Shown here one piece after another: positions 168 through 55,725 of a DNA stretch of 64,000 nt. Origin of the DNA: Candidatus Heimdallarchaeota archaeon (GTDB lineage: Archaea; Asgardarchaeota; Heimdallarchaeia; Heimdallarchaeales; Heimdallarchaeaceae); contig JAGLTB010000040.1 of NCBI GenBank assembly GCA_023270155.1, positions 5,644-69,643 on the forward strand, in the 5' to 3' direction. The first letter of the stretch is position 1; each line of letters opens with the position of its first letter. A program made the translations under genes and the position numbers. The notes under the pieces were generated by a model, which worked only from the letters and a program-made list of their open reading frames with translations, had not been told where the DNA came from and did not search any database.

Positions 168-2006
168 TTACTTTTTTTCTTTGTTTAGTACTTTAAACCA
201 TTTAGGAAATGCTGAAACACCTTTTTTTTCCGCATTAAATTCCCAGATTATTAATCCGCCTTCTGTTGAAACTTTGTTAAAATTAGATTCAGTAAAAAGC
301 CTCTCCATAGCTTCATTTCTTTCAGTTTTTTGGTATTTTCCGATAAGGACTTTAACATCTTCTTTCATTGCTTCTTTCATAAGATAAGATAGAAATGTTT
401 CTTCTACAGTTTTACCCATTGCTCTGCAAGAGAAAGTTAAGATCTCCATTGTCCATTTATCAACTTCTTTCTTTACAACTGTAACTCCGATTAATCCGTA
501 TTCTCCATATCTATCATAGAGATTGACTATATAAACTCCAAATTCTGAAGACCTGTGAAATTCTAATAATTCATCTTTTGAATAACGTACTGCTGTTGCA
601 TTCAGTTGATTTGTTCTTTGTATAAGCTCAGTTACTCTTCCAAGATTTTCATCTTTAGCTTCTCGCATCCAAATTTCCAAGCTACACGAAAGAAGGAATC
701 CCTCTTTATCTAAAGCAAACGTCTTTTCATCTACTTCTCTCTTTTTTTGCTCAACATACAATTGTGTTCGTTTTGCACTCTCGTCAGTCAGTTTCCCAAC
801 TGGTTCAAATTCAACTCTGTTTAATGTATGAATTAACTCTGTTTCCGGTAGAACTAAAACATCTGGTAAAAATAAGGCAATTTGATCTCTCTCATAGGGA
901 TTGTCATCAAAGAATGCGACAGAATCAAGACCAATATTTAGCTCTTCAGCTATTTCCATAATACTCTGTGCTTTATCATTCCAATTAATTTTCTTGATTA
1001 CAATAGAATCTGCGATTGGTCCTAATACCTTGTTAACTAACGGTTCTATCGTACTATCGTTTTTGCTTGCAATAGCTAGGATGATTCCTCTTCGAGTCAG
1101 GAATTTAAGTACGGTTAATCGATTTTCATAAACATTGATTCCTTCTACTCCATCATCACGTAATATTCCATCCCACATTGTATTATCTAGATCTAAGACG
1201 ACACATTTTATTTTTCGACCATGAGCTTTGACAACTTTGAGATGATCTACAAGCTCCATTGAGATTGTAACGGCACCTTCTCGAGTAAAGTGTTCATAAA
1301 CACCATCAGCATCATTTTCTCTGATTTGGAGTCCAGTTGCTGCTTTGAGAAAAGTTTCATTAACTGATAGAACATATAAATCCTCATCCTGCTTTGCTAA
1401 ATCATAGAAAGAGGATTCCAATCTATTCAGAAACTCCCTTAGGCTATAACTACGCTCTAAATTTTTATAATCAAATCTTCCGAATGCAGGTCTTATAACA
1501 AGTGGATAAGTCATGATAAAATAGATAGCATTAAGCTTTGTTTTAGCTTTCTCTATACCATTATGAAGACGTTGTTTGACGAATTCCAGTTGGTCATCTT
1601 GTGATTTGAAATCAGATTTGTTATGTTGAATAGAACCTATTTCACTTCTAATAAATTGAACATCACTTAGAACAACAATGTTTGGATTGAAAGCATATAC
1701 ACCACTTTTGAAATCACTTAAAACCAAATTGGGGTCAGGTGATTCATTATGATCAAAGGTTAGATAACATGAAACTCCATTCGCTTCAAAAAACTCTTTC
1801 ATAAATTCTAATTCGCATCCACCAACAAAAGCGATTCTTTGTTGTGTTAAGAAATCCTTGTCTTCTTTTGGAAGTTCAGTTGCTATATTAATAGGTCTAG
1901 CCGCTTGAGTGAGTCTTGTTAGCACTGTATTCCTGAACTTCTTGTCAGTAATCATTCGTTTCATAATAGAAAGAATTCTCTTCAAACTCATTTGTTTTTC
2001 ACCCAA
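168..2006 (-). CDS. FkbH-like HAD-IIIC family protein: N-terminal domain, HAD phosphatase core, GNAT-like C-terminal domain
   Basis: 612 aa ORF. HAD motif I DLDNTMWDG, motif II IASKN and motif IV FFDDNP are present. The C-terminal ~200 aa has an acetyltransferase-like beta-rich pattern. The gene sits 6 nt from the downstream deacetylase-like gene on the same strand. Confidence 0.5.
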   Translation of the reverse strand: MGEKQMSLKRILSIMKRMITDKKFRNTVLTRLTQAARPINIATELPKEDKDFLTQQRIAFVGGCELEFMKEFFEANGVSCYLTFDHNESPDPNLVLSDFKSGVYAFNPNIVVLSDVQFIRSEIGSIQHNKSDFKSQDDQLEFVKQRLHNGIEKAKTKLNAIYFIMTYPLVIRPAFGRFDYKNLERSYSLREFLNRLESSFYDLAKQDEDLYVLSVNETFLKAATGLQIRENDADGVYEHFTREGAVTISMELVDHLKVVKAHGRKIKCVVLDLDNTMWDGILRDDGVEGINVYENRLTVLKFLTRRGIILAIASKNDSTIEPLVNKVLGPIADSIVIKKINWNDKAQSIMEIAEELNIGLDSVAFFDDNPYERDQIALFLPDVLVLPETELIHTLNRVEFEPVGKLTDESAKRTQLYVEQKKREVDEKTFALDKEGFLLSCSLEIWMREAKDENLGRVTELIQRTNQLNATAVRYSKDELLEFHRSSEFGVYIVNLYDRYGEYGLIGVTVVKKEVDKWTMEILTFSCRAMGKTVEETFLSYLMKEAMKEDVKVLIGKYQKTERNEAMERLFTESNFNKVSTEGGLIIWEFNAEKKGVSAFPKWFKVLNKEKK

Positions 2007-8540: not shown

Positions 8541-8750
8541 TACGATGTTGAGATTACGGACAATTTGACTATGACCTATCTTATTGTTAGGTATCTTTTT
8601 ATTTGGGTCTCCTTTTTAGAAGAGTTATCGAAATCGTTTTTTACATTTAGAAGAAGTAATTTAGATAGCATTTAAAAAAATGCACAGAAAGAGCAATGTA
8701 GAAGTTTTTTCAATCTACATTTATATTTCATAACATATTTATAGATAAAA

Positions 8751-9452
8751 ATGAATAATCATAAGATGGAGAAGATTAGCAGAAAAATGAAGTCAATAAA
8801 GACAAGAGACGCTCTAATCACATTAATTATGATTGTTTTTCTAACCATTCTTCTTCCGAGTTCTAGAGTTTCTTCTTACTTCAATACTTTTCTAGTTGAA
8901 GCTTATGAATACAAGCATATTATAGTTAACACAGGAGATCAGACATTCAATGTAAAACTTACAGTGGATCCTAAGTATGATTATTATCCAGTAATAATTT
9001 TTATTTTTAATAAAGAGAATTTCAATAATTGGAAAAACGAACGATCTTATAGTTTCATCAATGCTTTCTACAATCCAGATGGGGAGTATTATTTACACTT
9101 GAATGAAAATAGCAAATATTATCTAGTTATTGATAATACAGATAATTTTCTTGATTCAGAGATCAGGATCAGTCTTGGCAGTTACGGATTTTATGGAGGA
9201 GAGGTTTTTGTAAACGAAAATGAGTTGTCGAATCTCCTCTACATTTTATTCTCTCTAGTGCTTATTCCCATAACCTATTTAGCTGTACGTATGTCAAAAA
9301 GAAGAAAATTAGAATCTTCTGTAGATGCACAAGCAACAATAATTCACCCTTCGGATTCTCCCCCAGGATCAACTAAGTTCTGTAATGAGTGTTATTTTGA
9401 AATTGAGTCAGTAGCAAAAGTGTGTCCAAATTGTGGAAATAAATTCAGATAA
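8751..9452 (+). CDS. membrane protein with C-terminal zinc-ribbon
   Basis: N-terminal TM segment, a beta-rich central region, a second TM segment, and a C-terminal CNECYFEIESVAKVCPNCGNKF ribbon. Confidence 0.35.
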   Translation: MNNHKMEKISRKMKSIKTRDALITLIMIVFLTILLPSSRVSSYFNTFLVEAYEYKHIIVNTGDQTFNVKLTVDPKYDYYPVIIFIFNKENFNNWKNERSYSFINAFYNPDGEYYLHLNENSKYYLVIDNTDNFLDSEIRISLGSYGFYGGEVFVNENELSNLLYILFSLVLIPITYLAVRMSKRRKLESSVDAQATIIHPSDSPPGSTKFCNECYFEIESVAKVCPNCGNKFR

Positions 9453-9521
9453 ACAGTTTCTTTTTTCTTCATCTAGTATTTTCTGAATCTTTGTGCTACT
9501 AGACCCCAAATAATTTTAAGA

Positions 9522-10349
9522 TTGAACTCTATCCCTATTCTGACACTGATGAGCATAGTCAAGGACTTAATCAAAAATCTACCAAAGGAACTACAACAAA
9601 TTATAGAAGATTACATGTGGGAGAAGAATACAATGGGGTGGTCAGGAACAAAAGTGTTCAAACTTACTCAAGATAAAGAAATTTTGTATTTAAAAATAAA
9701 TGAACCAACATCTGATTTCAATCTGGAAAAAGAAAAAATAATTCTGGAATGGCTTGCAGGAAAATTACCTGTGCCAGAAGTGATATACTTTGAAAAGAAA
9801 AATAATACAGAGTATCTTCTATTGTCAGAAATAAGAGGAATAGTTTCGCACAAAACTAGCAAAGACGAAGAGAAACGAAAAAACATAACTATTCTAGCTG
9901 AGGGATTGAAAAAGATACATTCGATTAACCCTAGTGAGTGTCCAATTGATAATAATCCAGATAAATTAATTGAACTAGCTAGAGCCAGATTGAAGAAGGG
10001 TAAAATTGATTCCAGTAAGTTTGACAAGAGATGGTCAGATAAGAATCCAGAACAGTTATTTGAAGAACTAGAGAAAATTAAACCGAAAGAATATGATCTT
10101 GTTTTTTCACATGGAGATTACTGTCTTCCCAATGTTCTTGTGAAAAAAAATCAATTAAGCGGAATAATCGATTGGCCCTACAGTGGCATAAATGAAAGAT
10201 ATTTTGATCTTGGAGCTGTAACCTGGAGTATAGGATACAATTATGGTGAAGAATGGGTTAAATTCTTCTTTGAGGATTATGGCATTGAGGATATAGATTG
10301 GGAAAAAATATTCTTCTTCCAAATGTTGAATGAATTTTTCCAACAATAA
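9522..10349 (+). CDS. aminoglycoside/choline-kinase-like phosphotransferase (APH family)
   Basis: Brenner motif HGDYCLPNVLV and DWPYSGINERYFDLG, typical of the APH/ChoK fold. Confidence 0.6.
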   Translation: MNSIPILTLMSIVKDLIKNLPKELQQIIEDYMWEKNTMGWSGTKVFKLTQDKEILYLKINEPTSDFNLEKEKIILEWLAGKLPVPEVIYFEKKNNTEYLLLSEIRGIVSHKTSKDEEKRKNITILAEGLKKIHSINPSECPIDNNPDKLIELARARLKKGKIDSSKFDKRWSDKNPEQLFEELEKIKPKEYDLVFSHGDYCLPNVLVKKNQLSGIIDWPYSGINERYFDLGAVTWSIGYNYGEEWVKFFFEDYGIEDIDWEKIFFFQMLNEFFQQ

Positions 10350-10397
10350 TTTTATGGCAGACCATTAGATTTATTTCTTCAAGTTTTAATTTAGCGT

Positions 10398-12014
10398 ATG
10401 AGTTTGCGATTTAATTCTTATCGATCCCCAATCTATGGAAAAAGAGGGATGGTAGCTTCGAGTCAGCCTTTGGCTTCAGAAGCAGGAATGAGAATTCTTC
10501 AACAGGGAGGAAATGCAGCAGATGCTGCAGTTGCTACTGCTGCGGCCTTGAATGTAACTGAACCTTGTTCTACAGGTATCGGTGGAGATTGTTTCTGTTT
10601 GTTCTTCGATAATAAAACTAAAACAGTTTCTGGTCTCAATGCAAGTGGTCGCGCCCCCGCTGAGCTCAATCTAGAGTTTCTTGCAGAGCAAGGGATAACT
10701 GGTTCTTCTTTACCGCCCTTAAGCATTCATACAATAACAGTTCCAGGAGCTGCTGCTGGGTGGGTTGATACTATAGAAAAATTTGGAACACTTGATCTTA
10801 AGACAATTTTGACCCCAGCTATTGAATTAGCAGAGGGAGGATTTCCAGTTGCACCATTTACTGCTAGAGCTTGGAACAGAAGTACAAGGATATTGAAGAC
10901 AGGTCCTAACGCTGAAGAAATGTTACTGAATGGCGAAGCACCAAAAGTAGGAGAGATTATGAAAAATCCAACACTCGCACAAACTTTCAGAGAACTTGCT
11001 GAACATGGAAAAGCTGGATTTTATGAGGGAAGAATTGCAGAAGCAATTATTGATTTAATTCATTCTAAAGCAGGTGTTATGTCGACAGAGGATTTAAAGA
11101 ATCATCACAGCACATTTGATGATCCTATATCTACAAATTATCGAGGAGTAGAGGTTTATGAAATTCCTCCAAACGGACAAGGAATTACTGCTCTTATTGC
11201 TCTTAACATTCTAGAAGAGTTTGAGATAAGTAAAATGGAGCACTCTTCAGTTGAGTATCTGCACGTTATGATCGAAGCTATGAGAATAGCTTTTGCAGAT
11301 ACACGTTGGTATGTAGCTGATCCAGCAGTCGTAAATGTTCCAATAACGGAATTAATATCAAAACAATACGCAGCTCAGAGAAGGGAGTTAATAGATTTAA
11401 CAAAGGCAACCATTGATGTTCAACGAGGATCACCAACGACTAGTTCAGATACGGTTTACTTTTCTGTAGCTGATGGTGAAGGAAACGCTTGTAGTTTTAT
11501 TAATTCAAATTATATGGGATTTGGTACTGGTTTGATACCCAAGGGATGTGGATTTACATTACAGAATCGTGGAGCAAACTTCACTCTTGAAGAAGGACAT
11601 CCCAATGTTTTAGCACCAAAAAAGAGACCTTATCATACAATTATTCCTGGTATGGCTACAAAAGATGATGAGCTCTATGCGAGTTTTGGTGTAATGGGAG
11701 GCTTCAATCAACCTCAAGGTCACGCTCAGGTTGTAAGTAACATGATTGATTTTGAAATGAATCCACAGGAAGCTCTTAATGCACCAAGATTCAGTATTCG
11801 AGATGGAACAAGTGGAGGGAAAGTAGCTTTGGAAGAAGGCATAAGTTCTGCAACTATGAGCATCTTAAGTAATATGGGGCATGAAATCATTCCAACCTCA
11901 GGTGTATCCAGAATGATTTTTGGAAGAGGTCAAATTATAACTCGCAACCCAAAAAATGGTGTCCTATGTGGTGGTTCAAGCCCTAGAGCAGATGGAATAG
12001 CTATAGGATGGTAA
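10398..12014 (+). CDS. ggt: gamma-glutamyltranspeptidase
   Basis: 538 aa. Autoprocessing nucleophile region SDTVYFSVADGEGNA and an N-terminal RGMVASSQPLASEAG motif are conserved as in GGT. Confidence 0.8.
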   Translation: MSLRFNSYRSPIYGKRGMVASSQPLASEAGMRILQQGGNAADAAVATAAALNVTEPCSTGIGGDCFCLFFDNKTKTVSGLNASGRAPAELNLEFLAEQGITGSSLPPLSIHTITVPGAAAGWVDTIEKFGTLDLKTILTPAIELAEGGFPVAPFTARAWNRSTRILKTGPNAEEMLLNGEAPKVGEIMKNPTLAQTFRELAEHGKAGFYEGRIAEAIIDLIHSKAGVMSTEDLKNHHSTFDDPISTNYRGVEVYEIPPNGQGITALIALNILEEFEISKMEHSSVEYLHVMIEAMRIAFADTRWYVADPAVVNVPITELISKQYAAQRRELIDLTKATIDVQRGSPTTSSDTVYFSVADGEGNACSFINSNYMGFGTGLIPKGCGFTLQNRGANFTLEEGHPNVLAPKKRPYHTIIPGMATKDDELYASFGVMGGFNQPQGHAQVVSNMIDFEMNPQEALNAPRFSIRDGTSGGKVALEEGISSATMSILSNMGHEIIPTSGVSRMIFGRGQIITRNPKNGVLCGGSSPRADGIAIGW

Positions 12015-16275: not shown

Positions 16276-19251
16276 TCAAGAAGAAGGAGACAGTAGAGTT
16301 AATTTCGTTTTGCAATAAGGACATCGTTCTTTTTCTTTAATCCAAGCTTTCAGATGGTTAAAATGAAAAATATGTTCACAAAGAGGACATTCGATACCAT
16401 TTTCATAAACAGGTTCTAGACAGATGAGACATTCATTTGAGGTTTCTTTCTCTTTCAATTTTGCTATGCCAACTTCTTTCGCTTTTTTGTGAATTCTATC
16501 TGCGATTATTATACTTTCTTGCATAGCAGGTTTCTTTGATTCAGCTTTTTGTTTAATAGCTCCTATTATTTTAGCTTTGTTTTGAAGATAGTTTATGTAA
16601 TTGCTTAAAGTTCCTTTACTGATATCTGAATCTCCAACAACTATGAGTTTTTTCTTTGCTCGAGTAATAGCAACGTTTAACCTACGATTATCTGCAAAAC
16701 CTTTGTTACCATGAAATTCAGATTCTGTTAATGAGAGAATTATAACTTCACGATCACTTCCTTGGAACCTATCTACTGTGTCCACTGTAATAGCTGATGG
16801 TAGATTCCTTCTAATCTCACTAACTTGACCTCTGTATGGACATATTATACCAAGTTGTTCTTCTTTCAATCCTAATTTCTGAAGGTTTGGAACAATTTCG
16901 CCTATTATTTTCGCTTCTTCCTTGTTTAATTTTTTATCATGCATAAAAGCACCTTTAGTAGGAAGAAAGATCAACGGATTTTCTGGATTGTAGATCTCAG
17001 CATCTTTGAAAGTTCCAAATGTCTCCTTGAAATTAGTTAAGTTTGATAGAGATTGTGATTTGACTTCTTCATCAAAGGATTCTAATTTTCCATCATAAAA
17101 TTCGTTGTTTGAAAATTCAATTAGTTTTTCATTCATTCTGAATTGTCTCGTTAGAAGATGTATATCTTCAGAATATACTTTTGCTAATCTTTCAAATATT
17201 GAAATCCCTAATCCTTCTTGTAACACCTTCGGGTTTTGAATTACAGGAGGGAGTTGCTTATGATCACCAACAAGAACAAATCTATCTCCTTCAATCAGCG
17301 CAGATAGAACTGTTGTTTCAGTCATTTGACTGGCTTCATCGATAATTACAGTTTGAATACCCATCTTCTCAAACACAGGGTTTGAAATCGAGGAAGTTGT
17401 TGATATTATAATTGGAATATCCTGAAGAATCTTTGTTGTGGATTTATCTACATTCCTTTCCTTATATGCTTTCAGAGTATAGTTGTGAATTTCTGATTGA
17501 ATAGAGTGAGTTCCTCCAAGCCTTACAAAACCACTATAACCATTTTCCAGTAAATATTTACAAATATTATCAACCGCTCTATTTGTGAATGCAGTAAGTA
17601 ATACTTTTTCACCATTGTTTGCAAGAGTAATAGCTGCTTTTGCTATTACATAGGTTTTTCCTGTTCCCGCGGGTCCTTGAATAAGACAGTAATTTTGAGT
17701 CCCCAATATTCTTTCAATTGCTTGATTCTGAATTTGATTATTAGAGATATAATCTCCTTTCACATGTTTAATATCTGGAGGTTTTTCTTCAATTACATAT
17801 TCTTTATACTTGTTTTTTCGAAATACAAGATTAAAAAGGCCTCTTTGTTGTCTTCTGAAACCAACGTCAATAGAATATTGATCCACAACTGTAATTTTTT
17901 CTGACATTGAACGTGTAATAATCTCAATAGAAGTACCACTAATGGAAGACACTACTCCCGTCACTATAGATCCCTTGAGAATATCCCCTTGACTAAGAAC
18001 AACAATATCTCCCTCACGCAATTCAGATTTATTATTGCATGAAAATAGTAAGCGAGTATGTCCTATTTCTTTGGTTTCATTTTCTAAAACTAAATTTTCA
18101 ATCGATTTACCTTTAGCAACTCTTTGTTCGACTTTTAGCTTCCACAAATCAGAGAAATTCCTACGAGATTCGTTTTTCTCCTCCCTTATCCAACGAGTAT
18201 ATCGGTTGAAGTAGTCCTGATGAGATTTCGGTAGTTCTTTTTTTGTACAATATGATTCATGATGACATGTAGAACAGTTACGTTCTTGGTTCAAGCCTGC
18301 ACACACAATCGCACAATAATGTTTCGTGAAGCAATTTCTGCACTTGTTTTTATCTTTGGGAGGAAGAATTTTTGGTTCATATCCCAAATAAGAAACTCTG
18401 TATGCGGTGTTTCTCTGATTCATTGCATATCGTAACAAACCCCAATTTGGTTGAGCTTTCTTCTCCACAACCTTTTTTGTACCTACATAGATTACTGTTC
18501 CCTCATTTGGTTTAGTTTGCTCAGTAAAATTTTCTAGACCATAACGATATGCTGTTACTTGTAGTAAATCTGAAAACCGCAATTCCTTATCTTCTGTTAG
18601 TTTTGCTGTTTTTAATTCAAATATATGGTCATTATGCAGAATATCTATTCTTCCCCTAATCCCATAAAAGGGGGATAAAAATAATATTTCAGGTATAGTC
18701 TGGCCTTTCAAATTCTCAACAAATGGATCAAGACATTCAACCATTTCTCGAACATCCTGATAAACTGCTTCTTTAGTATATCCAATATTCTCATATTGCA
18801 GTGAAAAAGCATCCAGTACAGCAGAAAGTTCCTCAGATGGTTTGGAGTTACTAACAAGGGCAGCATTTAAACAATCATGAACAATTGAACCCCTTATAGC
18901 TACGTAAGGAGAAGGTAATTCACCAATAATTTCATTCAGATAATAACTTCGAGGACAAAAGGAGACATTATTTATTGCAGTTGCATTGATCAAGATATCA
19001 GGATCCACAACAAATATTGATTTTGATCCAACTGAATAGAAGGTAGTATCATCCTTTTCTTTCTTTTCTGTGTTAAAAACTCTAAAAGAAGTGTAGGGTT
19101 GTATATAATCACTTACATCATGCCAAGGTGACCATAGATTTATCACAATATTTTCTTTCTCGATTGCAGCTAAAATTGTTGAACGAGGATTGTCACCGTT
19201 AGAACTTGAAAGAGTTTTGATATATACACCTGTTAAGTCAACCATTGTCAT
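16276..19251 (-). CDS. Dna2-like nuclease-helicase (Cas4/RecB-type Fe-S PD-(D/E)xK nuclease, Upf1-like SF1B helicase) with C-terminal RING/PHD-like zinc finger
   Basis: Nuclease region: CPRSYYL, D..ELK and the Cys cluster CRNCFTKHYC..C. Helicase region: GPAGTGKT, DEASQ, VGDHKQLPP, QFRMN and VDRFQGSDREV. C-terminus: CLIC-x10-CPLCEHIFHFNH-x10-CPYC. Confidence 0.75.
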   Translation of the reverse strand: MTMVDLTGVYIKTLSSSNGDNPRSTILAAIEKENIVINLWSPWHDVSDYIQPYTSFRVFNTEKKEKDDTTFYSVGSKSIFVVDPDILINATAINNVSFCPRSYYLNEIIGELPSPYVAIRGSIVHDCLNAALVSNSKPSEELSAVLDAFSLQYENIGYTKEAVYQDVREMVECLDPFVENLKGQTIPEILFLSPFYGIRGRIDILHNDHIFELKTAKLTEDKELRFSDLLQVTAYRYGLENFTEQTKPNEGTVIYVGTKKVVEKKAQPNWGLLRYAMNQRNTAYRVSYLGYEPKILPPKDKNKCRNCFTKHYCAIVCAGLNQERNCSTCHHESYCTKKELPKSHQDYFNRYTRWIREEKNESRRNFSDLWKLKVEQRVAKGKSIENLVLENETKEIGHTRLLFSCNNKSELREGDIVVLSQGDILKGSIVTGVVSSISGTSIEIITRSMSEKITVVDQYSIDVGFRRQQRGLFNLVFRKNKYKEYVIEEKPPDIKHVKGDYISNNQIQNQAIERILGTQNYCLIQGPAGTGKTYVIAKAAITLANNGEKVLLTAFTNRAVDNICKYLLENGYSGFVRLGGTHSIQSEIHNYTLKAYKERNVDKSTTKILQDIPIIISTTSSISNPVFEKMGIQTVIIDEASQMTETTVLSALIEGDRFVLVGDHKQLPPVIQNPKVLQEGLGISIFERLAKVYSEDIHLLTRQFRMNEKLIEFSNNEFYDGKLESFDEEVKSQSLSNLTNFKETFGTFKDAEIYNPENPLIFLPTKGAFMHDKKLNKEEAKIIGEIVPNLQKLGLKEEQLGIICPYRGQVSEIRRNLPSAITVDTVDRFQGSDREVIILSLTESEFHGNKGFADNRRLNVAITRAKKKLIVVGDSDISKGTLSNYINYLQNKAKIIGAIKQKAESKKPAMQESIIIADRIHKKAKEVGIAKLKEKETSNECLICLEPVYENGIECPLCEHIFHFNHLKAWIKEKERCPYCKTKLTLLSPSS

Positions 19252-19334: not shown

Positions 19335-19823
19335 TTGGTGAATGTTATGCCTGATGATGTGTTTATTCTGGACAAAAGTGGGATACCATACTATAGTAGG
19401 TGCTTTGGGGGAGAGACATGTAAAATGAGACCAGATCATACTTTACAAACGGGATTTCTAGCAGCATTGTATGCATTTTCAAAGGAATCATATGGACAAC
19501 AGGAGATTAGAACTGTTATCTTCTCTGATTTAAAATTACATTTCAAAGTTAACCAAGAAAAAGATGTAATAATAGTATTTACAGCACCATTAAGTGAAAA
19601 AGATGAAGAAGTAGAAGGACAAATGGATATGACATTGGGTGCTTTCTTGGAGTTGTATGAACAAGACATAGGAAAAGGATATGCTGATACAGAGAAGTTT
19701 GATGGATTTGACCAGACATTACAAGAGTTGAATGTAGTAAAAACAAAACCTATGGGAAGAATAAATTTAAGAGAAAAAGTAAGTAGTTGGAAGAAAATCT
19801 TCAGAAGATACAAACATAAATGA
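19335..19823 (+). CDS. longin/SNARE-like fold protein resembling TRAPP Bet5/sedlin or AP sigma subunits
   Basis: DVFILDKSGIPYYSRCF resembles Bet5 LYLFDRNGVCLHYSEW. LQTGFLAALYAFSKE resembles LMYGMLFSIRSFVSK. TVIFSDLKLHFKVNQEKDVIIVFTAP resembles YKLHYYETPTGIKVVMNTD. Basic C-terminal tail. Confidence 0.45.
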   Translation: MVNVMPDDVFILDKSGIPYYSRCFGGETCKMRPDHTLQTGFLAALYAFSKESYGQQEIRTVIFSDLKLHFKVNQEKDVIIVFTAPLSEKDEEVEGQMDMTLGAFLELYEQDIGKGYADTEKFDGFDQTLQELNVVKTKPMGRINLREKVSSWKKIFRRYKHK

Positions 19824-20151: not shown

Positions 20152-22404
20152 TTATTTTACTTGAGTAGATCTTCCTCTTCCAAAATCTGAAATCACTATG
20201 TATGATACCAGTTTTGCGAAATATGTAGATCTGCTAAGAATGCCAACAACTTCATTCGTTGCTTCATCTTGAGCTGCAATCAAAACTTCTTCATTTTCTC
20301 GTTCAACACCAATGAAACGAGGCATTTCAACACCTGTTCCAGAATCTCTTAGCTTTCTTAATTCCACATTTGCCTGGGCATTTGTCATTGTATTTATCCA
20401 ATCTCTATCAGTTTCCTCATCCAGACTCGTGATTATTGTGACTTTAGCTGTGGTTGGAAGCTGCTTTATAGATTCTGTTGGAATATATTCAATCTTAGGT
20501 ACCATAATAGTCACTCCTCTCTTTGTATCTGTCACAATTCTAGACACGTGATCCAAAACAGCATCTAATCCCACAATTGAAGTTGTTTGAACTGGAGGAA
20601 TTTGAGACTCACTTGAAGTGGCTTCTAAGGTTCTGAAATCGTTTTTCAGTTTCATTGTTGCGCTTATTAGATAGTTAGCTGTATCTGTTAATTTTCTTTC
20701 TGAATCTTCAATAAACTTAACAGAAGAGTCAACTTCCTCAGTCAATTTGCCAGAAACTAGCTCCCTACTCTCTCGTATCCCGTTCTTTGAACTGTCAATT
20801 GCTTCTCTCGAAATGTTCAACGCAGATTCTATTGTTTTTTGAAGATGATTGTTTAAGCCAGATACAACCTCTGAAATAGTTGATTGAAACGAACTTTTAG
20901 ATTCATCGTATTTTTCATTAAGCTTTGTTTCAGTTTCCTGAGAAAGAAAATCCAATCTTTGTGATATTGTTTCCCAATTTTCTTTCAAAGATGATGATTC
21001 TGTAGTAAGATCTTGAGCAAGTGTTGTGTTTAGTTGAGTAGATAACTCCTTGAATTTGGTTAATTGAGAACGAATGCTGTTGACAATCTCTTCTGTTGTT
21101 GTATTAATTTGTTCAATTAAACTCTCTTCAAATCCACTGAAACGAGTAGTTGCTAGTTCTTTGACTTCATTTATTTTTTCATTGTATTCGTTAATAGCAG
21201 TAGTATATTGCGCATCTAGTTTTTGAATGAACATATCTCTTTCACTAACTAAATTATTCTTCTGAGTCTGTTCTTTGTTTTCTAAATCAGTGAATTTTAG
21301 ATTCATGCTTTCTCTGATTTGAGAAATTGAGCTTGAAATTGCTTGGTTTTTCTGCTGCATTAGTTCTTCTAATAAACTAACTTTAATTTGTGATACTTTC
21401 TCATTTAAAGCTGAGAGAGATTCCTTAATTTGGAGAGAAAGATCTTCTACTTTGTTGTTCAAAACCATGTCAAGGGAATTATTTAAATCAGTAAGAGAAC
21501 TTGAGACAGTTTCTGAAATTCCTTCGATTGTTTGTTCAGTATCTCTTGTTATTTCAGTGGAATAGCCTACATACTTTTCGGTTTGACCTCTGTTGAATGC
21601 TCTTACATCCATTTTTGTAGTATCTATGTTTTGTTTAATTTGTGCAATTGTTGAATCTATATCATCTAGATACTGTTGATTCATTGCATCAAATTTTGGT
21701 TTTGCTATTTTTGCAATTCCGGATATATTGTCTATAGATGTTTGAGAATTTTCCTCTATTTCTGTAGTGAATACAGTAAGATTCTCTTCATTTTTTGCTT
21801 TAATGTTGGAAACAGAAGATTCAATAGAAACTTTAGATTTATTCAAGCTTTCAATGCTATCCGTAAATACACTCTGCAATGTTGTTTGAACGTTTCTTCT
21901 ATGATTGTCTTGATCTGTGAGTATTTTGGATGAAAAAGCTCCTGTTTTCTCATTAATATCTTCTTTTTGTTGTTGGTTTAAGGTTTGAATTGAAGAAGAT
22001 GTTTGTGTTAATTTCTGATCTAATTCAGCTTCTTTTCTCGATACTGATTCATTTAAACTAATTGATAGATTACCTTTCAATTGATTAAACGTTTCTTTCT
22101 TTTCTTGGAGAAAAGATGTTGTCTGACCCAGAGTGCTTTTAACATTCTCGCTTAGTTGATCGCTTGTAGTTCCCAAGTAGTCCAATGGGATTTTCACGTA
22201 ATATTTTTTTACATATCCTTCCGAAGCACCAACAGCACCTTTATTCAACAGAGAATCTAATGCAACTTTAACCTTTGAAAAATGTAACTTGCTAAACTGT
22301 GTTATTTCAAAAGTAGTCAATTGACCTCCACCTAAAAGAAGTTGGTAAACTTGTTTTTCTTCAGGATTTAGTTGTAATCTTTCAATAAAGGACATTTTTT
22401 TCAC
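20152..22404 (-). CDS. TrmB-like wHTH / ~550-aa S/T/N/Q-rich coiled-coil / conserved C-terminal globular domain protein
   Basis: N-terminal EEKQVYQLLL..GQLTTFEITQFSKLHFSKVKVALDSLLNKGAV matches the TrmB/MarR-type wHTH. The central region is long and helical. The C-terminal ~150 aa is paralogous to the C-terminus of the ORF at 62374-64000. Confidence 0.5.
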   Translation of the reverse strand: MKKMSFIERLQLNPEEKQVYQLLLGGGQLTTFEITQFSKLHFSKVKVALDSLLNKGAVGASEGYVKKYYVKIPLDYLGTTSDQLSENVKSTLGQTTSFLQEKKETFNQLKGNLSISLNESVSRKEAELDQKLTQTSSSIQTLNQQQKEDINEKTGAFSSKILTDQDNHRRNVQTTLQSVFTDSIESLNKSKVSIESSVSNIKAKNEENLTVFTTEIEENSQTSIDNISGIAKIAKPKFDAMNQQYLDDIDSTIAQIKQNIDTTKMDVRAFNRGQTEKYVGYSTEITRDTEQTIEGISETVSSSLTDLNNSLDMVLNNKVEDLSLQIKESLSALNEKVSQIKVSLLEELMQQKNQAISSSISQIRESMNLKFTDLENKEQTQKNNLVSERDMFIQKLDAQYTTAINEYNEKINEVKELATTRFSGFEESLIEQINTTTEEIVNSIRSQLTKFKELSTQLNTTLAQDLTTESSSLKENWETISQRLDFLSQETETKLNEKYDESKSSFQSTISEVVSGLNNHLQKTIESALNISREAIDSSKNGIRESRELVSGKLTEEVDSSVKFIEDSERKLTDTANYLISATMKLKNDFRTLEATSSESQIPPVQTTSIVGLDAVLDHVSRIVTDTKRGVTIMVPKIEYIPTESIKQLPTTAKVTIITSLDEETDRDWINTMTNAQANVELRKLRDSGTGVEMPRFIGVERENEEVLIAAQDEATNEVVGILSRSTYFAKLVSYIVISDFGRGRSTQVK

Positions 22405-44696: not shown

Positions 44697-46262
44697 GTGA
44701 GCATTAGAGAAACTGAACACATTGAAGTCCTATATCATCAACCTGGACATCTTAAAGGTGTTACTAGAATAGAAGAGATAGAAGACTACATTTTTACGGG
44801 TGGGGAAGATGGGAGAATTTGTATTTGGGATTCGAATCTCAATGATGAAATAGGATGTTTATACGCTCACAAATTCTCAATTAATGACATTCAGAAACTA
44901 AATGATGAAGAAATCCTAGTCACTGCTTCGAATGACTTAGAATTAAAACTCTGGTCTCTAAAGGATTTCTCGTTGATTCTCTCTAAAAAGGCTCATTCTT
45001 CAGCAATCATAGGAGGAAAACCTTGGAGGAATTACGTAATTAGCGCAAGTAGAGATCATATGATTAAGAAATGGAAATTCAAGGATGGTAAATTAATAGA
45101 AGAGAATCGAACAAAATTCCCAGGTATGGAGAAATTCTTTCTTTGTGGAGATTTGATTGTAATTACCGATCAAAATGGATTAATGTCCATTCTTAACGCT
45201 GAAGATTTTTCTAAGTTCAGATATAATGCAATAGATAAGAAGAAACTGATTAGAGCTATTAAGAAGGCTGGAAAATACATAAAGGATTTTGAGAACCAAG
45301 ATTCCCACACTATCCTCTTTAATATGGTTAGAAGATATGGGATTCCTTCAACAGTTTGTACCACAACTGAAGATCTCTTCATCTTAGGTCATCAATTTGG
45401 TTTAGTATCTTTCTGGAAAAGGGATAATGGTAAATTATTCGAAACTCTTTTCCTTCATAGCAAACACATTACAGGCATTGGATTTCTGGGAAGCAAATTA
45501 ATCACAATTTCCTTAGATTCTACTGTTGTAATTTCCGACATAGATACTGCTACACCTATTAAATCAGTAAAACTCCCATCACGTCCTTTGTCTTTAAAGA
45601 AATCAACAAATGGATTAATAATTATTGGCTTGGAATCAGGGGAGATTGCAGTTCTTAACCATCAATTAGAGATTACCAGAACACTACCTAAAATAGTTCC
45701 AATCTCAAGCTCTTGCATAACACCAGATTTCCTTGCTTTAGCTTTCAGTAATGGTGAGATTCAATTATTGAATAATACTAATCTGAAGAGTGTCATCAAG
45801 AAGAAGATTCATAACAAAACACCCCTTTCAATTAGCTATTATAAGAATCGTTTGATAACTGTAGGTGAGGATAAACAAATCTATTTTCTAGATAAAGAAT
45901 TATATGTAACAAAAACAATTCAACTAACGGTGAATCCTACTCAACCAAAACAAGCAAAACACTATATAGCCATAAATTCAAACCATGTTTTGGATTTGAA
46001 CAAAGATGAAATAATAAAGGGGGAAATATCCAGAGAAACGGAGAGGGAATTAGAAGATGAATTCTTTCCTAAATATAAATATCAAAACGGTGATCTTTCA
46101 ATTTTAATCTATAAACAGAGTTTGGAAGAAACAGAAAATAATAAAATATCGGAATTTTATGAAGAAGAAGTTTTAGAGTCTTTTGGAAAACTAGTTAAAT
46201 CAAGTGGAAATAGAAAATACATCAAAACAACGGATTTAACAGTATTACGTTTGAAAAACTGA
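44697..46262 (+). CDS. WD40-repeat beta-propeller protein (two propellers likely)
   Basis: Repeated GH..WD-like units (GGEDGRICIWD, ASNDLELKLWS, ASRDHMIKKWK ...) across 521 aa. GTG start. Confidence 0.65.
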   Translation: MSIRETEHIEVLYHQPGHLKGVTRIEEIEDYIFTGGEDGRICIWDSNLNDEIGCLYAHKFSINDIQKLNDEEILVTASNDLELKLWSLKDFSLILSKKAHSSAIIGGKPWRNYVISASRDHMIKKWKFKDGKLIEENRTKFPGMEKFFLCGDLIVITDQNGLMSILNAEDFSKFRYNAIDKKKLIRAIKKAGKYIKDFENQDSHTILFNMVRRYGIPSTVCTTTEDLFILGHQFGLVSFWKRDNGKLFETLFLHSKHITGIGFLGSKLITISLDSTVVISDIDTATPIKSVKLPSRPLSLKKSTNGLIIIGLESGEIAVLNHQLEITRTLPKIVPISSSCITPDFLALAFSNGEIQLLNNTNLKSVIKKKIHNKTPLSISYYKNRLITVGEDKQIYFLDKELYVTKTIQLTVNPTQPKQAKHYIAINSNHVLDLNKDEIIKGEISRETERELEDEFFPKYKYQNGDLSILIYKQSLEETENNKISEFYEEEVLESFGKLVKSSGNRKYIKTTDLTVLRLKN

Positions 46263-54525: not shown

Positions 54526-55725
54526 CTATTTTACAGCTGCTACAATTCTAATTACATCGTTATTTTGTACTTCATAATCTGCGCCTATTCTTCTCCCTGA
54601 AGGAGCAAGTTGACCATGAATGAAATTATTCGCAAAATCTGTGTGGATTTTTGCAGCTAACTCGATAGCAGTCGTTCCTTTAGGAACAAGAAAAGCATCA
54701 GGCAGAATATTTCCTGACTTATCTGTGAATTTAGTTATATCCTCAACAGGATAAACAACAATCATATCGAGTAGATTGAAGACCACATGGGATAATACTG
54801 CTTGAACACCAGTAGAGCCATATTTAACAAGTAAATCTGTCTTAATCTTTTGAATTAAAATCTCTTTTTTATCTCCTAATTTTTCTCTATCTAGTATCTT
54901 GAATTCTGAATCTCCTGGAGAATAAGAAATGGCTTTATTTTCTTGTTCGTTTCTCAGAAATACCTCAACAAGTGCAGAAATTGGAAAGACACCTGATGGT
55001 ATCTTCTCTTTCATTTTTAAGTAATTTTTATGAGAATCCGGTTGGTCAATCTTATTTGCAACAATAATAATTGGTTTGGATTTTTTCCGAATATTAGTAA
55101 CTAACTCTGTTAATTTTTCATCCCATGTTGAAGCATCATCATCGACCATTCCTACTTCTCTAATTGATTCCTCAATATAGTATTTCTTTATAGCTAATCC
55201 TGTTAGCTTATCGTATAGGAGATTTGAAAATCTTTGCTTTTCAGCTGAAGCTTTCTTTTTCATAGTTTCATAATCTCTCTTTATAATTGCTAAAATCCAA
55301 GCATCAATTTCCTCTTCTAAGAATTTCACATCGTCTAGTGGATCCCAAGAACCCTTATCAACAGCATTTCCTTCAGCGTCTAATGAACCACTTGCGTCAA
55401 CTACGTGGATAAGAACATCTGCTTGTCGAAGCTCATCCAGGAATTTATTGCCTAATCCTCTCCCTTCAGAAGCTCCAGGCACTAGTCCCGCGACATCTAA
55501 GAATTGAATAGGTAGGAATCTTATACCATCTTCGCACAACGAGTTTTTGGGATTGTCTTTAACACCAAGATCCTTACATACACATGGACTACGAACATAA
55601 GCTGTACCTCGATTTGGTTCAATTGTTGTAAACGGATAATCTCCTACTTTTGCATTAACCATAGTAAGAGCATTAAGAAAAGTGCTTTTACCACAACTAG
55701 GTTTACCTACAATTCCAATTAACAT
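54526..55725 (-). CDS. ychF: YchF/OLA1-family Obg-like ATPase with C-terminal TGS domain
   Basis: G1 GIVGKPSCGKST, LDVAGLVPGASEGRGLGNKFL (YchF-type G3) and a C-terminal AAKIHTDFANNFI. Confidence 0.7.
   Translation of the reverse strand: MLIGIVGKPSCGKSTFLNALTMVNAKVGDYPFTTIEPNRGTAYVRSPCVCKDLGVKDNPKNSLCEDGIRFLPIQFLDVAGLVPGASEGRGLGNKFLDELRQADVLIHVVDASGSLDAEGNAVDKGSWDPLDDVKFLEEEIDAWILAIIKRDYETMKKKASAEKQRFSNLLYDKLTGLAIKKYYIEESIREVGMVDDDASTWDEKLTELVTNIRKKSKPIIIVANKIDQPDSHKNYLKMKEKIPSGVFPISALVEVFLRNEQENKAISYSPGDSEFKILDREKLGDKKEILIQKIKTDLLVKYGSTGVQAVLSHVVFNLLDMIVVYPVEDITKFTDKSGNILPDAFLVPKGTTAIELAAKIHTDFANNFIHGQLAPSGRRIGADYEVQNNDVIRIVAAVK

What the first reader, a model, noticed from the sequence alone, without database searches (positions are those of the whole stretch)
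19335..19823. Longin/SNARE-like fold protein resembling TRAPP Bet5/sedlin or AP sigma
Sequence segments align well with TRAPP Bet5/sybindin. DVFILDKSGIPYYSRCF matches LYLFDRNGVCLHYSEW. LQTGFLAALYAFSKE matches LMYGMLFSIRSFVSK. IRTVIFSDLKLHFKVNQEKDVIIVFTAP matches YKLHYYETPTGIKVVMNTD. Longin and TRAPP-like building blocks belong to the eukaryotic membrane-trafficking toolkit, and Asgard archaea are known to carry relatives. This copy has a basic C-terminal tail. It lies convergent to the ferredoxin and coiled-coil-protein operon.
Basis: partly seen in the sequence, partly recalled or inferred. Interest (0 to 1): 0.6.

Follow-up and report, generated by a model that had tools for sequence, protein, structure and literature searches.

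The report
MON1-like longin protein of Heimdallarchaeota
This is a real, conserved small gene of a Heimdall-group Asgard archaeon that encodes a stand-alone longin-fold protein; it is closest to the catalytic longin domain of the eukaryotic Rab activator MON1, not to TRAPP or adaptor subunits, and it carries an unexplained invariant Asp-Cys-Cys-His cluster and a basic tail, so it is an expected kind of Asgard protein with one unusual feature.

Summary
The ORF at 19335..19823 (+) is real. Its likely start is the ATG at 19347, giving 158 aa. Heimdallarchaeota orthologues turned up at 19 loci, two of them split-contig fragments, and dN/dS is 0.09-0.16.

The specific TRAPP Bet5/sedlin/AP-sigma call does not hold. 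Profile comparison gives MON1 first longin domains E = 1.9e-6 (fly), 1.8e-4 (human) and 9e-4 (fungus). TRAPPC1 gives 0.13, sedlin 0.43 and AP2 sigma 0.12. 19 of 59 family members hit Pfam Fuz_longin_1 and none hit the TRAPP, adaptor-sigma or roadblock models. The top three Foldseek hits are MON1 chains.

Conserved G16, G40 and A44 align with Mon1 residues whose mutation abolishes Rab7 exchange activity. Distant relatives are fused to Arf/Ras-like GTPases.

My best reading is a membrane-tethered longin platform that binds a small GTPase. This is inferred, not shown.

One feature is unexplained. D8, C23, C29 and H35 are invariant, and the Cys-Cys-His part sits in a 5-residue loop insertion absent from MON1. 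Relatives that lack this loop carry TRASH metal-binding domains or extra tail cysteines, which suggests a metal site. No gene neighbour is conserved beyond close relatives. I rate it a new member of a known kind, of moderate interest.

The parts
19347..19823 (+). Most likely coding sequence, 158 aa plus stop. The mechanical ORF starts at TTG 19335. Residue numbers in this report use the 162-aa ORF.
   Evidence: ORF. The identical NCBI protein P0001 starts at MPDD, and orthologues start MADD or MVDD. dN/dS is 0.09-0.16.
19337..19341 (+). GGTGA, a Shine-Dalgarno-like motif 5 nt upstream of the ATG at 19347.
   Evidence: Read directly from the sequence. Its role as a ribosome-binding site is inferred.
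19356..19403 (+). Beta1-turn-beta2 hairpin, residues 8-23. It contains D8, the invariant G16 and P18 (an S-G-x-P turn matching A-G-K-P of MON1).
   Evidence: Strands. Conservation: D8 57/59, G16 59/59, P18 54/59. G16 aligns with Chaetomium Mon1 G232.
19401..19439 (+). Beta2-alpha1 loop with the C23-x5-C29-x5-H35 signature. It is a 5-residue insertion relative to MON1 and a candidate metal or catalytic site together with D8.
   Evidence: C23 59/59, C29 58/59, H35 59/59. D8 co-occurs with the Cys-Cys-His loop in 72/72 members, against 8/32 without it. Insertion seen. This loop has the lowest pLDDT of the domain.
19440..19490 (+). Helix alpha1, residues 36-52, with conserved L37, G40, F41, A44, F48 and E51. 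In longin GEFs this helix is the GTPase-facing and dimerisation helix.
   Evidence: G40 and A44 align with Mon1 G250 and T254. The role of those residues is described in PMC5216073.
19512..19589 (+). Strands beta3-beta4-beta5, residues 60-85.
   Evidence: AlphaFold2 models.
19602..19727 (+). Helices alpha2 and alpha3, residues 90-131. These are the two C-terminal helices that define longin topology as opposed to roadblock.
   Evidence: The topology definition comes from PMC10933270.
19752..19820 (+). Basic tail, residues 140-162, with an amphipathic helix around 145-160 (LREKVSSWKKIFRRYKHK). Proposed membrane- or partner-binding element.
   Evidence: Hydrophobic moment 0.69 and charge +5 for residues 145-158. 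Tail +9 against body -11. Family median tail charge +4, body -8. Helix predicted at low confidence (pLDDT 51-68).

Best explanation
The gene encodes a stand-alone longin-domain protein. It belongs to an Asgard-wide family whose nearest characterised relative is the first longin domain of MON1/FUZ/HPS1, the catalytic domain of the eukaryotic tri-longin Rab exchange factors.

The most likely mechanism is as follows. The domain pairs with another longin domain through the edge of its beta-sheet and through helix alpha1. The alpha1 face, with its conserved small residues G40 and A44, together with the S-G-x-P turn, then serves as a docking platform for an Arf-, Rag- or Rab-like small GTPase encoded elsewhere in the genome. 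Binding would shift the GTPase's nucleotide state or its location. The basic amphipathic C-terminal helix would hold the complex on the membrane. The invariant D8/C23/C29/H35 cluster at the start of alpha1 probably binds a metal ion that stabilises or gates this surface.

Shown here: the gene is real and under purifying selection, the predicted fold is a longin, the sequence is closest to MON1 LD1, the conservation pattern is as described, and relatives are fused to GTPases. Inferred only: dimerisation, GTPase binding, direction of regulation (GEF or otherwise), membrane binding and metal binding.
For: Fold. The top Foldseek PDB hits are MON1 chains 8c7g_C, 9l0d_A and 9lol_B (E = 4e-6 to 8e-6), followed by TRAPPC1, AP mu/sigma, FUZ and LAMTOR.

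Sequence. hhalign of the family profile gives 1.9e-6 (fly Mon1 LD1), 1.8e-4 (human MON1A) and 9e-4 (Chaetomium Mon1). All eight other longin or roadblock references give 0.05 or worse. 19 of 59 members hit Pfam Fuz_longin_1. Relatives P0107, P0139 and P0113 pass its curated cut-off.

Interface. G16, G40 and A44 align with Chaetomium Mon1 G232, G250 and T254. The double mutants G232P/K233D and G250W/T254K abolish exchange activity on Ypt7 (PMC5216073).

GTPase link. Relatives found by the family profile are fused to Arf/Ras-like GTPase domains: P0120, P0139 and P0140 (longin then GTPase), plus P0124 and P0150. This matches published Asgard longin-GTPase architectures.

Tail. The basic amphipathic C-terminus is a conserved property of the family.

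Selection and spread. dN/dS is 0.09-0.16. 19 matching Heimdallarchaeota loci were found, two of which are fragments of one gene split across contigs. The exhaustive search returned 179 representatives, 74 of them at E <= 1e-10.
Against: No small Ras-like GTPase and no second longin or roadblock gene lies in the 64-kb window. No neighbour is conserved beyond close relatives.

The protein itself scores below Pfam's cut-off for Fuz_longin_1 (13.9 against 26.1 bits).

The MON1-specific additions needed for its exchange activity were not found. The alpha2-alpha3 linker is about 7 residues, with no SxDxR elbow-loop motif, and there is no N-terminal alpha0 helix.

Conserved glycines can be purely structural. 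Dimerisation could not be modelled with the tools available. The tail helix has low model confidence, and its amphipathicity is only marginally above shuffled sequence (6% of shuffles reach it). The invariant Asp-Cys-Cys-His cluster is not a feature of any characterised GTPase-regulating longin and may point to a different function.
Confidence: 0.55

Rival explanations
1. It is a TRAPP-core (Bet5/TRAPPC1, sedlin) or adaptor sigma-type subunit homologue and works inside a TRAPP-like or coat-like multi-subunit complex.
For: TRAPPC1 (2j3t_C) is the fourth-best Foldseek hit (E = 1.2e-5), and AP sigma/mu chains follow.
Against: hhalign E-values are 0.13 (TRAPPC1), 0.43 (sedlin) and 0.12 (AP2 sigma), against 1.9e-6 to 9e-4 for MON1. 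The Sybindin, Sedlin_N and Clat_adaptor_s models are absent from the 25 families listed for the 59 members. None of the neighbouring genes scanned against Pfam, here or at homologue loci, matched a Bet3/TRAPPC3-type or adaptin family.
Confidence: 0.05
2. It is a roadblock/LC7 (MglB- or LAMTOR-like) protein rather than a longin.
For: LAMTOR and MglB chains appear among the Foldseek hits at E around 5e-5 to 7e-4. The two folds share a common core.
Against: The model starts directly with a beta-strand and has no N-terminal helix. It ends with two helices, alpha2 and alpha3. Roadblock alignments cover only about 108 columns, against 136-150 for longins. hhalign against LAMTOR2 gives E = 0.086. No Robl_LC7 model appears among the families listed.
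Confidence: 0.02
3. The longin fold is used here mainly as a metal-binding or redox-sensing module, for example a Zn, Cu or Fe-S sensor or carrier, with no small-GTPase partner. The Asp-Cys-Cys-His site is then the functional centre and the basic tail targets the protein to the membrane or to nucleic acid.
For: D8, C23, C29 and H35 are the most conserved residues of the family. Asp8 co-occurs with the Cys-Cys-His loop (72/72 against 8/32). Relatives without the loop carry two to three extra tail cysteines or C-terminal TRASH metal-binding domains (P0091 and P0158). One distant member sits among YHS/TRASH, DUF411 and P-type ATPase genes. FLCN/Lst7 provide a eukaryotic precedent of putative zinc-binding Cys/His next to a longin domain.
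Against: The GTPase-interface positions G16, G40 and A44 are conserved both with and without the loop. GTPase fusions occur among the relatives. The site geometry could not be checked. The metal-gene neighbourhood is a single case. A structural zinc site is also compatible with the main explanation.
Confidence: 0.2
4. It is an enzyme that uses a Cys-His-Asp catalytic triad (thiol hydrolase or transferase) built on a longin scaffold.
For: One Asp, one His and two Cys are invariant and lie close together in the secondary-structure map. D8 sits opposite C23 in the hairpin.
Against: None of the longin or roadblock proteins returned by the fold searches or mentioned in the papers read here is described as an enzyme of this type. 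Foldseek returns only GTPase-platform, coat and SNARE longins. No Pfam or NCBIfam enzyme family is hit.
Confidence: 0.05

Closest known systems
[quoted passage not shown]
   Same: Same fold and the best match by both sequence and structure. Both share the (S/A)-G-x-P beta1-beta2 turn and the G-x3-(A/T)-x3-F pattern on alpha1, including positions whose mutation abolishes Mon1-Ccz1 activity.
   Different: This protein has one longin domain of 158 aa instead of three within a protein of more than 400 aa. No Ccz1-type partner was identified. It lacks the alpha0 helix and the 15-residue SxDxR elbow loop. It has a 5-residue Cys-Cys-His insertion before alpha1 and a basic C-terminal helix. It scores below Pfam's cut-off.
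Asgard longin-domain proteins and longin-Arf/Rag-like GTPase fusions (Liu et al. 2020 preprint 10.1101/2020.10.19.343400; Tran et al. 2024, PMC10933270)
   Same: Same lineage and superfamily. The profile search links this family to longin-GTPase fusions P0120 and P0139. As reported for the Lokiarchaeon MK-D1, the gene is not in an operon with a GTPase.
   Different: The Asp-Cys-Cys-His signature and the specific affinity to MON1 LD1 are not mentioned in the papers read. No member of this subfamily has been studied, and all named members are annotated as hypothetical proteins.
TRAPPC1/Bet5 and TRAPPC4/Trs23 (sybindin family) longin pair of the TRAPP RabGEF
   Same: Longin fold. TRAPPC1 is the fourth-best structural hit. 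The platform logic is the same as in Mon1-Ccz1.
   Different: No significant sequence relationship (E = 0.13). No Sybindin or Sedlin Pfam hits in the family. No Bet3-like partner was seen nearby.
FLCN/Lst7, NPRL2 and SMCR8 GAP-type longins (GP motif plus arginine finger; putative zinc-binding Cys/His in FLCN/Lst7)
   Same: A conserved Gly and Pro lie just before beta2, in the same place as the GP motif. Cys/His residues are associated with a longin domain.
   Different: The motif here is G-x-P, not GP. No conserved arginine is present: R22 in 12/59 and R32 in 7/59. hhalign E-values are 0.35 and 0.39, using reference sequences recalled from memory and not verified. The Cys/His residues occupy different positions.
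Roadblock/LC7 platforms (MglB, LAMTOR2/3)
   Same: Shared five-stranded core and the general role of a dimeric platform for small GTPases.
   Different: Different topology: no N-terminal helix and an extra C-terminal helix. Weaker and shorter matches.

Membership tests
Longin-domain superfamily (fold level) | Secondary-structure order beta-beta-alpha-beta-beta-beta-alpha-alpha, with no N-terminal helix | tested here: met
   AlphaFold2 models (pLDDT 75 and 88.5). The definition comes from PMC10933270.
Longin-domain superfamily (fold level) | Best structural neighbours are solved longin domains | tested here: met
MON1/FUZ/HPS1 LD1 (Pfam PF19036 Fuz_longin_1) | Score at or above Pfam's gathering threshold (26.1 bits) | tested here: not met
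   This protein scores 13.8-13.9 bits, E = 0.07. Within the family 19/59 members hit at E <= 0.1, with a best of 2.4e-5. Relatives P0107 (30.1), P0139 (34.9) and P0113 (28.9) pass the threshold.
MON1/FUZ/HPS1 LD1 (Pfam PF19036 Fuz_longin_1) | Profile-level sequence relationship to MON1 LD1 that exceeds that to other longins | tested here: met
   hhalign gives 1.9e-6, 1.8e-4 and 9e-4 for three MON1 LD1 sequences, against 0.05 or worse for TRAPPC1, sedlin, AP2S1, Sec22b, LAMTOR2, FLCN and NPRL2.
Tri-longin-domain RabGEF subunit (MON1, CCZ1, FUZ, INTU, HPS1, HPS4) | Three tandem longin domains in one chain | tested here: not met
   The protein has 158 aa and a single domain followed by a short tail.
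Tri-longin-domain RabGEF subunit (MON1, CCZ1, FUZ, INTU, HPS1, HPS4) | Mon1-specific alpha0 helix and alpha2-alpha3 elbow loop with the SxDxR motif needed for exchange activity | tested here: not met
   The model starts with beta1. The alpha2-alpha3 linker is about 7 residues (IGKGYAD) and has no SxDxR.
Tri-longin-domain RabGEF subunit (MON1, CCZ1, FUZ, INTU, HPS1, HPS4) | Heterodimer with a CCZ1-type partner and exchange activity on a Rab | not testable with these tools
   Multimer prediction and biochemistry were not available. Only 2/59 members weakly hit Intu_longin_1.
TRAPP core longins (Sybindin PF04099, Sedlin_N PF04628) | Sequence match to the sybindin or sedlin families | tested here: not met
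   Neither model is among the 25 families listed for the 59 members. hhalign E = 0.13 for TRAPPC1, whose sequence was verified against 2j3t_C, and 0.43 for sedlin.
Adaptor/coatomer small chains (Clat_adaptor_s PF01217) | Sequence match to the sigma/zeta family | tested here: not met
   The model is not among the 25 families listed for the 59 members. hhalign against AP2S1 gives E = 0.12. One distant GTPase-fused relative, P0120, has a sub-threshold hit of 20.0 bits against a cut-off of 22.5.
Longin SNAREs (Sec22b, Ykt6, VAMP7) | Longin domain followed by a SNARE motif of about 60 residues and a membrane anchor | tested here: not met
   Only about 30 residues follow the domain. There is no heptad-repeat motif of SNARE length, no transmembrane segment and no CaaX box. 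1/59 members weakly hits Pfam Longin.
Roadblock/LC7 (Robl_LC7 PF03259) | alpha-beta-beta-alpha-beta-beta-beta(-alpha) order with an N-terminal helix | tested here: not met
   No N-terminal helix and two C-terminal helices. No Robl_LC7 model appears among the families listed.
GAP-type longins (FLCN, NPRL2, SMCR8) | GP dipeptide at the start of beta2 plus a conserved catalytic arginine finger | tested here: not met
   The motif is G16-x-P18. No arginine is conserved in the hairpin or loop: R22 12/59 and R32 7/59.

The most novel reading that the evidence does not exclude
An Asgard-wide family of stand-alone longins is the closest prokaryotic relative of the catalytic MON1/FUZ/HPS1 domain of eukaryotic Rab exchange factors. 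It carries an invariant Asp-Cys-Cys-His metal or redox centre at the entrance of the GTPase-binding helix. Under this reading, small-GTPase regulation in these archaea is gated by a metal ion or by redox state, an input that none of the longin regulators met in this work is reported to use. Relatives with TRASH domains or tail cysteines would be variants of the same design.
Probability: 0.2. Interest if true: 0.7.

Novelty: new member of a known kind. Interest (0 to 1): 0.4.

Why it matters
Asgard archaea are already known to encode many longin and roadblock proteins, so finding one more does not change the picture. Three points are useful.

- This family is specifically closest to the catalytic longin domain of Mon1-type Rab activators, including residues at the Rab-binding surface. 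That offers a simple, single-domain, testable candidate for the prokaryotic precursor of the tri-longin RabGEFs. No paper I found addresses their origin in archaea.
- The invariant Asp-Cys-Cys-His cluster, together with the TRASH or cysteine-tail variants among relatives, hints at a link between metal binding and a GTPase-platform fold. That link can be checked with a purified 18-kDa protein.
- Several database gene calls for this family are truncated at the N-terminus and lose the beta1-beta2 hairpin. This hides the domain from annotation pipelines.

Tried and rejected
- **Single-sequence PDB search.** phmmer of the protein against PDB sequences gave only a chance hit to thymine dioxygenase. 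The family profile against PDB sequences gave nothing significant; MON1 and SRX appeared at E around 1.
- **NCBIfam.** No hit.
- **Paralogue or GTPase in the window.** A family HMM and an HMM built from fused GTPase domains were run against all six-frame ORFs. Only an Obg/YchF-type GTPase (54526..55725) and ABC ATPases scored.
- **Gene-neighbourhood analysis.** Covered 17 orthologue loci and 7 loci of other members. Synteny with the Dna2-RING, ferredoxin, TrmB coiled-coil, phosphoribosyltransferase and RFC genes is limited to about 9 close genomes. More distant loci have unrelated neighbours. Upstream small ORFs in L001 and L005 are unrelated membrane proteins.
- **Broad-alignment locus search.** The search for related loci failed with the broad alignment because no conserved stretch was long enough. 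The close alignment was used instead.
- **Naming and taxonomy.** Cluster look-up of 10 distant members returned no names. A single-protein search with P0025 found only itself.
- **Spurious hit.** P0082 (1036 aa, 11 matched stretches) is a low-complexity repeat protein and a chance match, so I discarded it.
- **Literature.** Searches for a zinc or cysteine motif in longins, or for tri-longin proteins in archaea, found no description of this family.
- **Bridging Fe-S cluster.** I considered a cluster shared between two subunits and rejected it. From my own recollection of how roadblock and longin dimers are built (strand order 2-1-5-4-3, pairing through beta3 and alpha1; only the pairing elements are described), the two beta2-alpha1 loops would lie at the outer edges of the dimer. 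This is reasoning, not a computation.
Full report
**The observation**

An ORF runs from 19335 to 19823 on the + strand and encodes 162 aa from a TTG. A public protein from a 'Candidatus Heimdallarchaeota archaeon' genome bin is 100% identical. It starts four codons later at MPDD, which is the ATG at 19347. Orthologues start MADD or MVDD. GGTGA lies 5 nt upstream of that ATG. I therefore take 19347..19823 as the gene (158 aa). Residue numbers below follow the 162-aa ORF.

19 matching loci in Heimdallarchaeota genomes, including the two closed Heimdallarchaeum chromosomes, encode it at 60-83% identity; two further loci at 95-98% are fragments of one gene split across contigs. Pairwise dN/dS against the window is 0.09-0.16, so this is a functional gene.

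The basic tail is real. The last 25 residues carry net charge +9, against -11 for the rest. The most amphipathic 14-residue window of the protein is residues 145-158. The convergent ferredoxin and the TrmB-HTH coiled-coil gene are as described.

**The fold**

An AlphaFold2 model built on 11 close homologues had pLDDT 75. A second model built on 59 family members reached pLDDT 88.5 and pTM 0.82. Both give these elements:

- beta1: 8-13
- beta2: 18-23
- a short helix: 27-31
- alpha1: about 36-52
- beta3 to beta5: 60-85
- alpha2: 90-111
- alpha3: 119-131
- a low-confidence terminal helix

This order (beta-beta-alpha-beta-beta-beta-alpha-alpha, no N-terminal helix) is the longin arrangement as opposed to roadblock, following the definitions summarised in PMC10933270. 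Foldseek against the PDB returns only longin and roadblock platform proteins. The longin hits align over 130-150 columns and the roadblock hits over about 108.

**Which longin**

The score is at chance level, however (E = 0.13, probability 0.45%). The TRAPPC1 sequence I used was verified against 2j3t_C.

| Reference | hhalign E-value against the family profile |
|---|---|
| Fly Mon1 LD1 | 1.9e-6 |
| Human MON1A LD1 | 1.8e-4 |
| Chaetomium Mon1 LD1 | 9e-4 |
| Sec22b | 0.05 |
| LAMTOR2 | 0.086 |
| AP2 sigma | 0.12 |
| TRAPPC1 | 0.13 |
| FLCN | 0.35 |
| NPRL2 | 0.39 |
| Sedlin | 0.43 |

The MON1 sequences were checked against PDB entries. The sedlin, AP2 sigma, Sec22b, LAMTOR2, FLCN and NPRL2 sequences are from my memory and were not verified.

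Pfam agrees. The protein's only hit is Fuz_longin_1 (first longin domain of FUZ, MON1 and HPS1), below threshold at 13.8 bits. 19 of 59 family members hit the same model, 2 hit Intu_longin_1 and 1 hits Longin; the Sybindin, Sedlin_N, Clat_adaptor_s and Robl_LC7 models are absent from the 25 families listed. With the better model, the top three structural hits are MON1 chains at 17-20% identity, and TRAPPC1 is fourth.

**The family**

An exhaustive profile search of 1.84 billion representatives found 179 proteins at E <= 1e-3 and 74 at E <= 1e-10. Most are 150-190 aa. Named members are Heimdallarchaeota or 'Promethearchaeota', and all are annotated as hypothetical.

More distant members are fused to other modules:

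- Arf/Ras-like GTPase domains: P0120, P0139, P0140, P0124, P0150
- TPR or LRR arrays
- long coiled coils
- TRASH metal-binding domains: P0091, P0158

The GTPase fusions match architectures already reported for Asgard archaea.

**Conservation pattern**

In 59 aligned members the invariant or nearly invariant positions are:

| Position | Conservation |
|---|---|
| D8 | 57/59 |
| G16 | 59/59 |
| P18 | 54/59 |
| C23 | 59/59 |
| C29 | 58/59 |
| H35 | 59/59 |
| L37, G40, F41, A44, F48, E51 | conserved on alpha1 |

They form two groups.

The first group is shared with MON1. S-G-x-P corresponds to A-G-K-P of MON1, and G40-x3-A44-x3-F48 corresponds to G-x3-(A/T)-x3-F. The Chaetomium Mon1 sequence in 5ldd_A has G, K, G and T at chain positions 43, 44, 61 and 65. 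Adding an offset of 189 gives G232, K233, G250 and T254. These are exactly the residues whose double mutation abolished exchange activity on Ypt7 (PMC5216073). G16, G40 and A44 align to G232, G250 and T254. They stay conserved in relatives that lack the cysteine loop.

The second group is specific to this subfamily. The C-x5-C-x5-H loop is a 5-residue insertion relative to MON1. It has the lowest confidence of the domain. Asp at position 8 lies opposite C23 in the hairpin. It is present in 72/72 loop-bearing members but in only 8/32 relatives without the loop. Sister groups instead have C-x4-C plus about two tail cysteines, or 'FGECHS' plus about three tail cysteines, or a TRASH domain.

I read this second group as a probable metal site of the Cys2-His-Asp type. 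I could not test its geometry because model coordinates are not exposed. The only precedent I found is the putative zinc-binding Cys/His of the FLCN/Lst7 longin region (PMC4703059).

**Genomic context**

The window is an ordinary chromosomal stretch. It encodes IleRS, ABCE1, an Obg-like GTPase, the RFC large subunit, gamma-glutamyltranspeptidase and an EutA-like protein. It contains no second member of the family and no Ras-like GTPase.

The order Dna2-RING (-), longin (+), ferredoxin (-), TrmB coiled-coil (-), phosphoribosyltransferase, RFC is kept in about nine close genomes. It is lost in Heimdallarchaeum endolithica, H. aukensis and others. Distant members have unrelated neighbours. This agrees with the published remark that Asgard GTPase and longin genes are generally not operonic. 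It also means the partner cannot be read from the genome layout.

**Mechanism**

The best-supported reading is a small longin platform that dimerises, binds an Arf-, Rag- or Rab-like GTPase on its alpha1 face and sits on the membrane through its basic amphipathic tail. A metal site would stabilise or gate the entrance of alpha1.

There is no conserved arginine (R22 12/59, R32 7/59) and the turn is G-x-P rather than GP. An arginine-finger GAP of the FLCN/NPRL2/SMCR8 type is therefore unlikely. The protein also lacks Mon1's alpha0 helix and elbow loop, so MON1-like exchange activity cannot be assumed either.

The fold, the affinity to MON1 LD1, the conservation pattern and the existence of fusions are shown here. 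Binding, dimerisation, membrane association and metal binding are inferred.

**Novelty and score**

Asgard longins are well documented. One census lists 130 roadblock/longin-superfamily orthologous groups. This is therefore a new, unannotated member of a known kind.

I did not find two things in the literature: the specific MON1-LD1 affinity with shared interface residues, and the invariant Asp-Cys-Cys-His signature with metal-domain variants among relatives. These make it a reasonable biochemical target but not a surprise. I score interest at 0.4.

Noticed in passing
window 16276..19251 (-): A 991-aa Dna2-like protein combines a PD-(D/E)XK nuclease and an SF1 helicase (AAA_11/AAA_12) with a C-terminal RING-H2 finger (zf-RING_2, E = 7.7e-7, residues 939-981). 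It is transcribed divergently from the longin gene, and homologues of similar full length (about 990 aa aligned at 58-64% identity) occur in 9 Heimdallarchaeota loci. A RING domain on a Dna2-type helicase looks unusual.
   Followed up: partly
window 20152..22404 (-): A 750-aa protein has an N-terminal TrmB-type HTH (residues 9-70), about 550 residues of coiled coil (weak Apolipoprotein hit) and a C-terminal globular part. It is conserved in 8 related loci.
   Followed up: partly
window 44697..46262 (+): A 521-aa WD40 beta-propeller protein has sub-threshold hits to eukaryotic-type propellers such as Prp19, THOC3 and the VPS11 N-terminus.
   Followed up: no
window 168..2006 (-) and 62374..63912 (-): Two large ORFs of 612 and 512 aa have no Pfam hit at E <= 1e-5.
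   Followed up: no
L003/L010 3692..4759 (JAAFKJ010000180.1): In one orthologous locus an IS605 OrfB/TnpB (Cas12f-like) gene is inserted between the Dna2-RING gene and the longin gene.
   Followed up: no
L001 5851..6390 (Heimdallarchaeum endolithica CP084167.1); also P0006, P0007, P0010: Several database gene calls of the orthologues are truncated to 129-132 aa and start at 'MRPDH'. The conserved beta1-beta2 part is encoded in frame upstream without an ATG ('KIIPDDIFILDKSG'). This implies either a non-ATG start or a mis-annotation that removes a third of the domain.
   Followed up: partly
L029 301..1838 and 8629..10558 (around distant family member P0033): One distant member with the Cys-Cys-His loop lies among metal-handling genes: DUF411, YHS/TRASH, DUF302 and a P-type ATPase. 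This is a single case, noted because of the putative metal site.
   Followed up: no
L026, L027, L028 (around P0168, P0043, P0030): Three loci of the 'AGCTxxxYC' branch of the family have M20/M28 peptidase genes, and two also have TPR-protein genes, within a few kb. This may simply reflect synteny among related genomes.
   Followed up: no
window 19436..19813 (-): A 125-aa antisense ORF overlaps the longin gene. It shows only partial conservation, which tracks the sense gene, so it is probably not a gene.
   Followed up: partly
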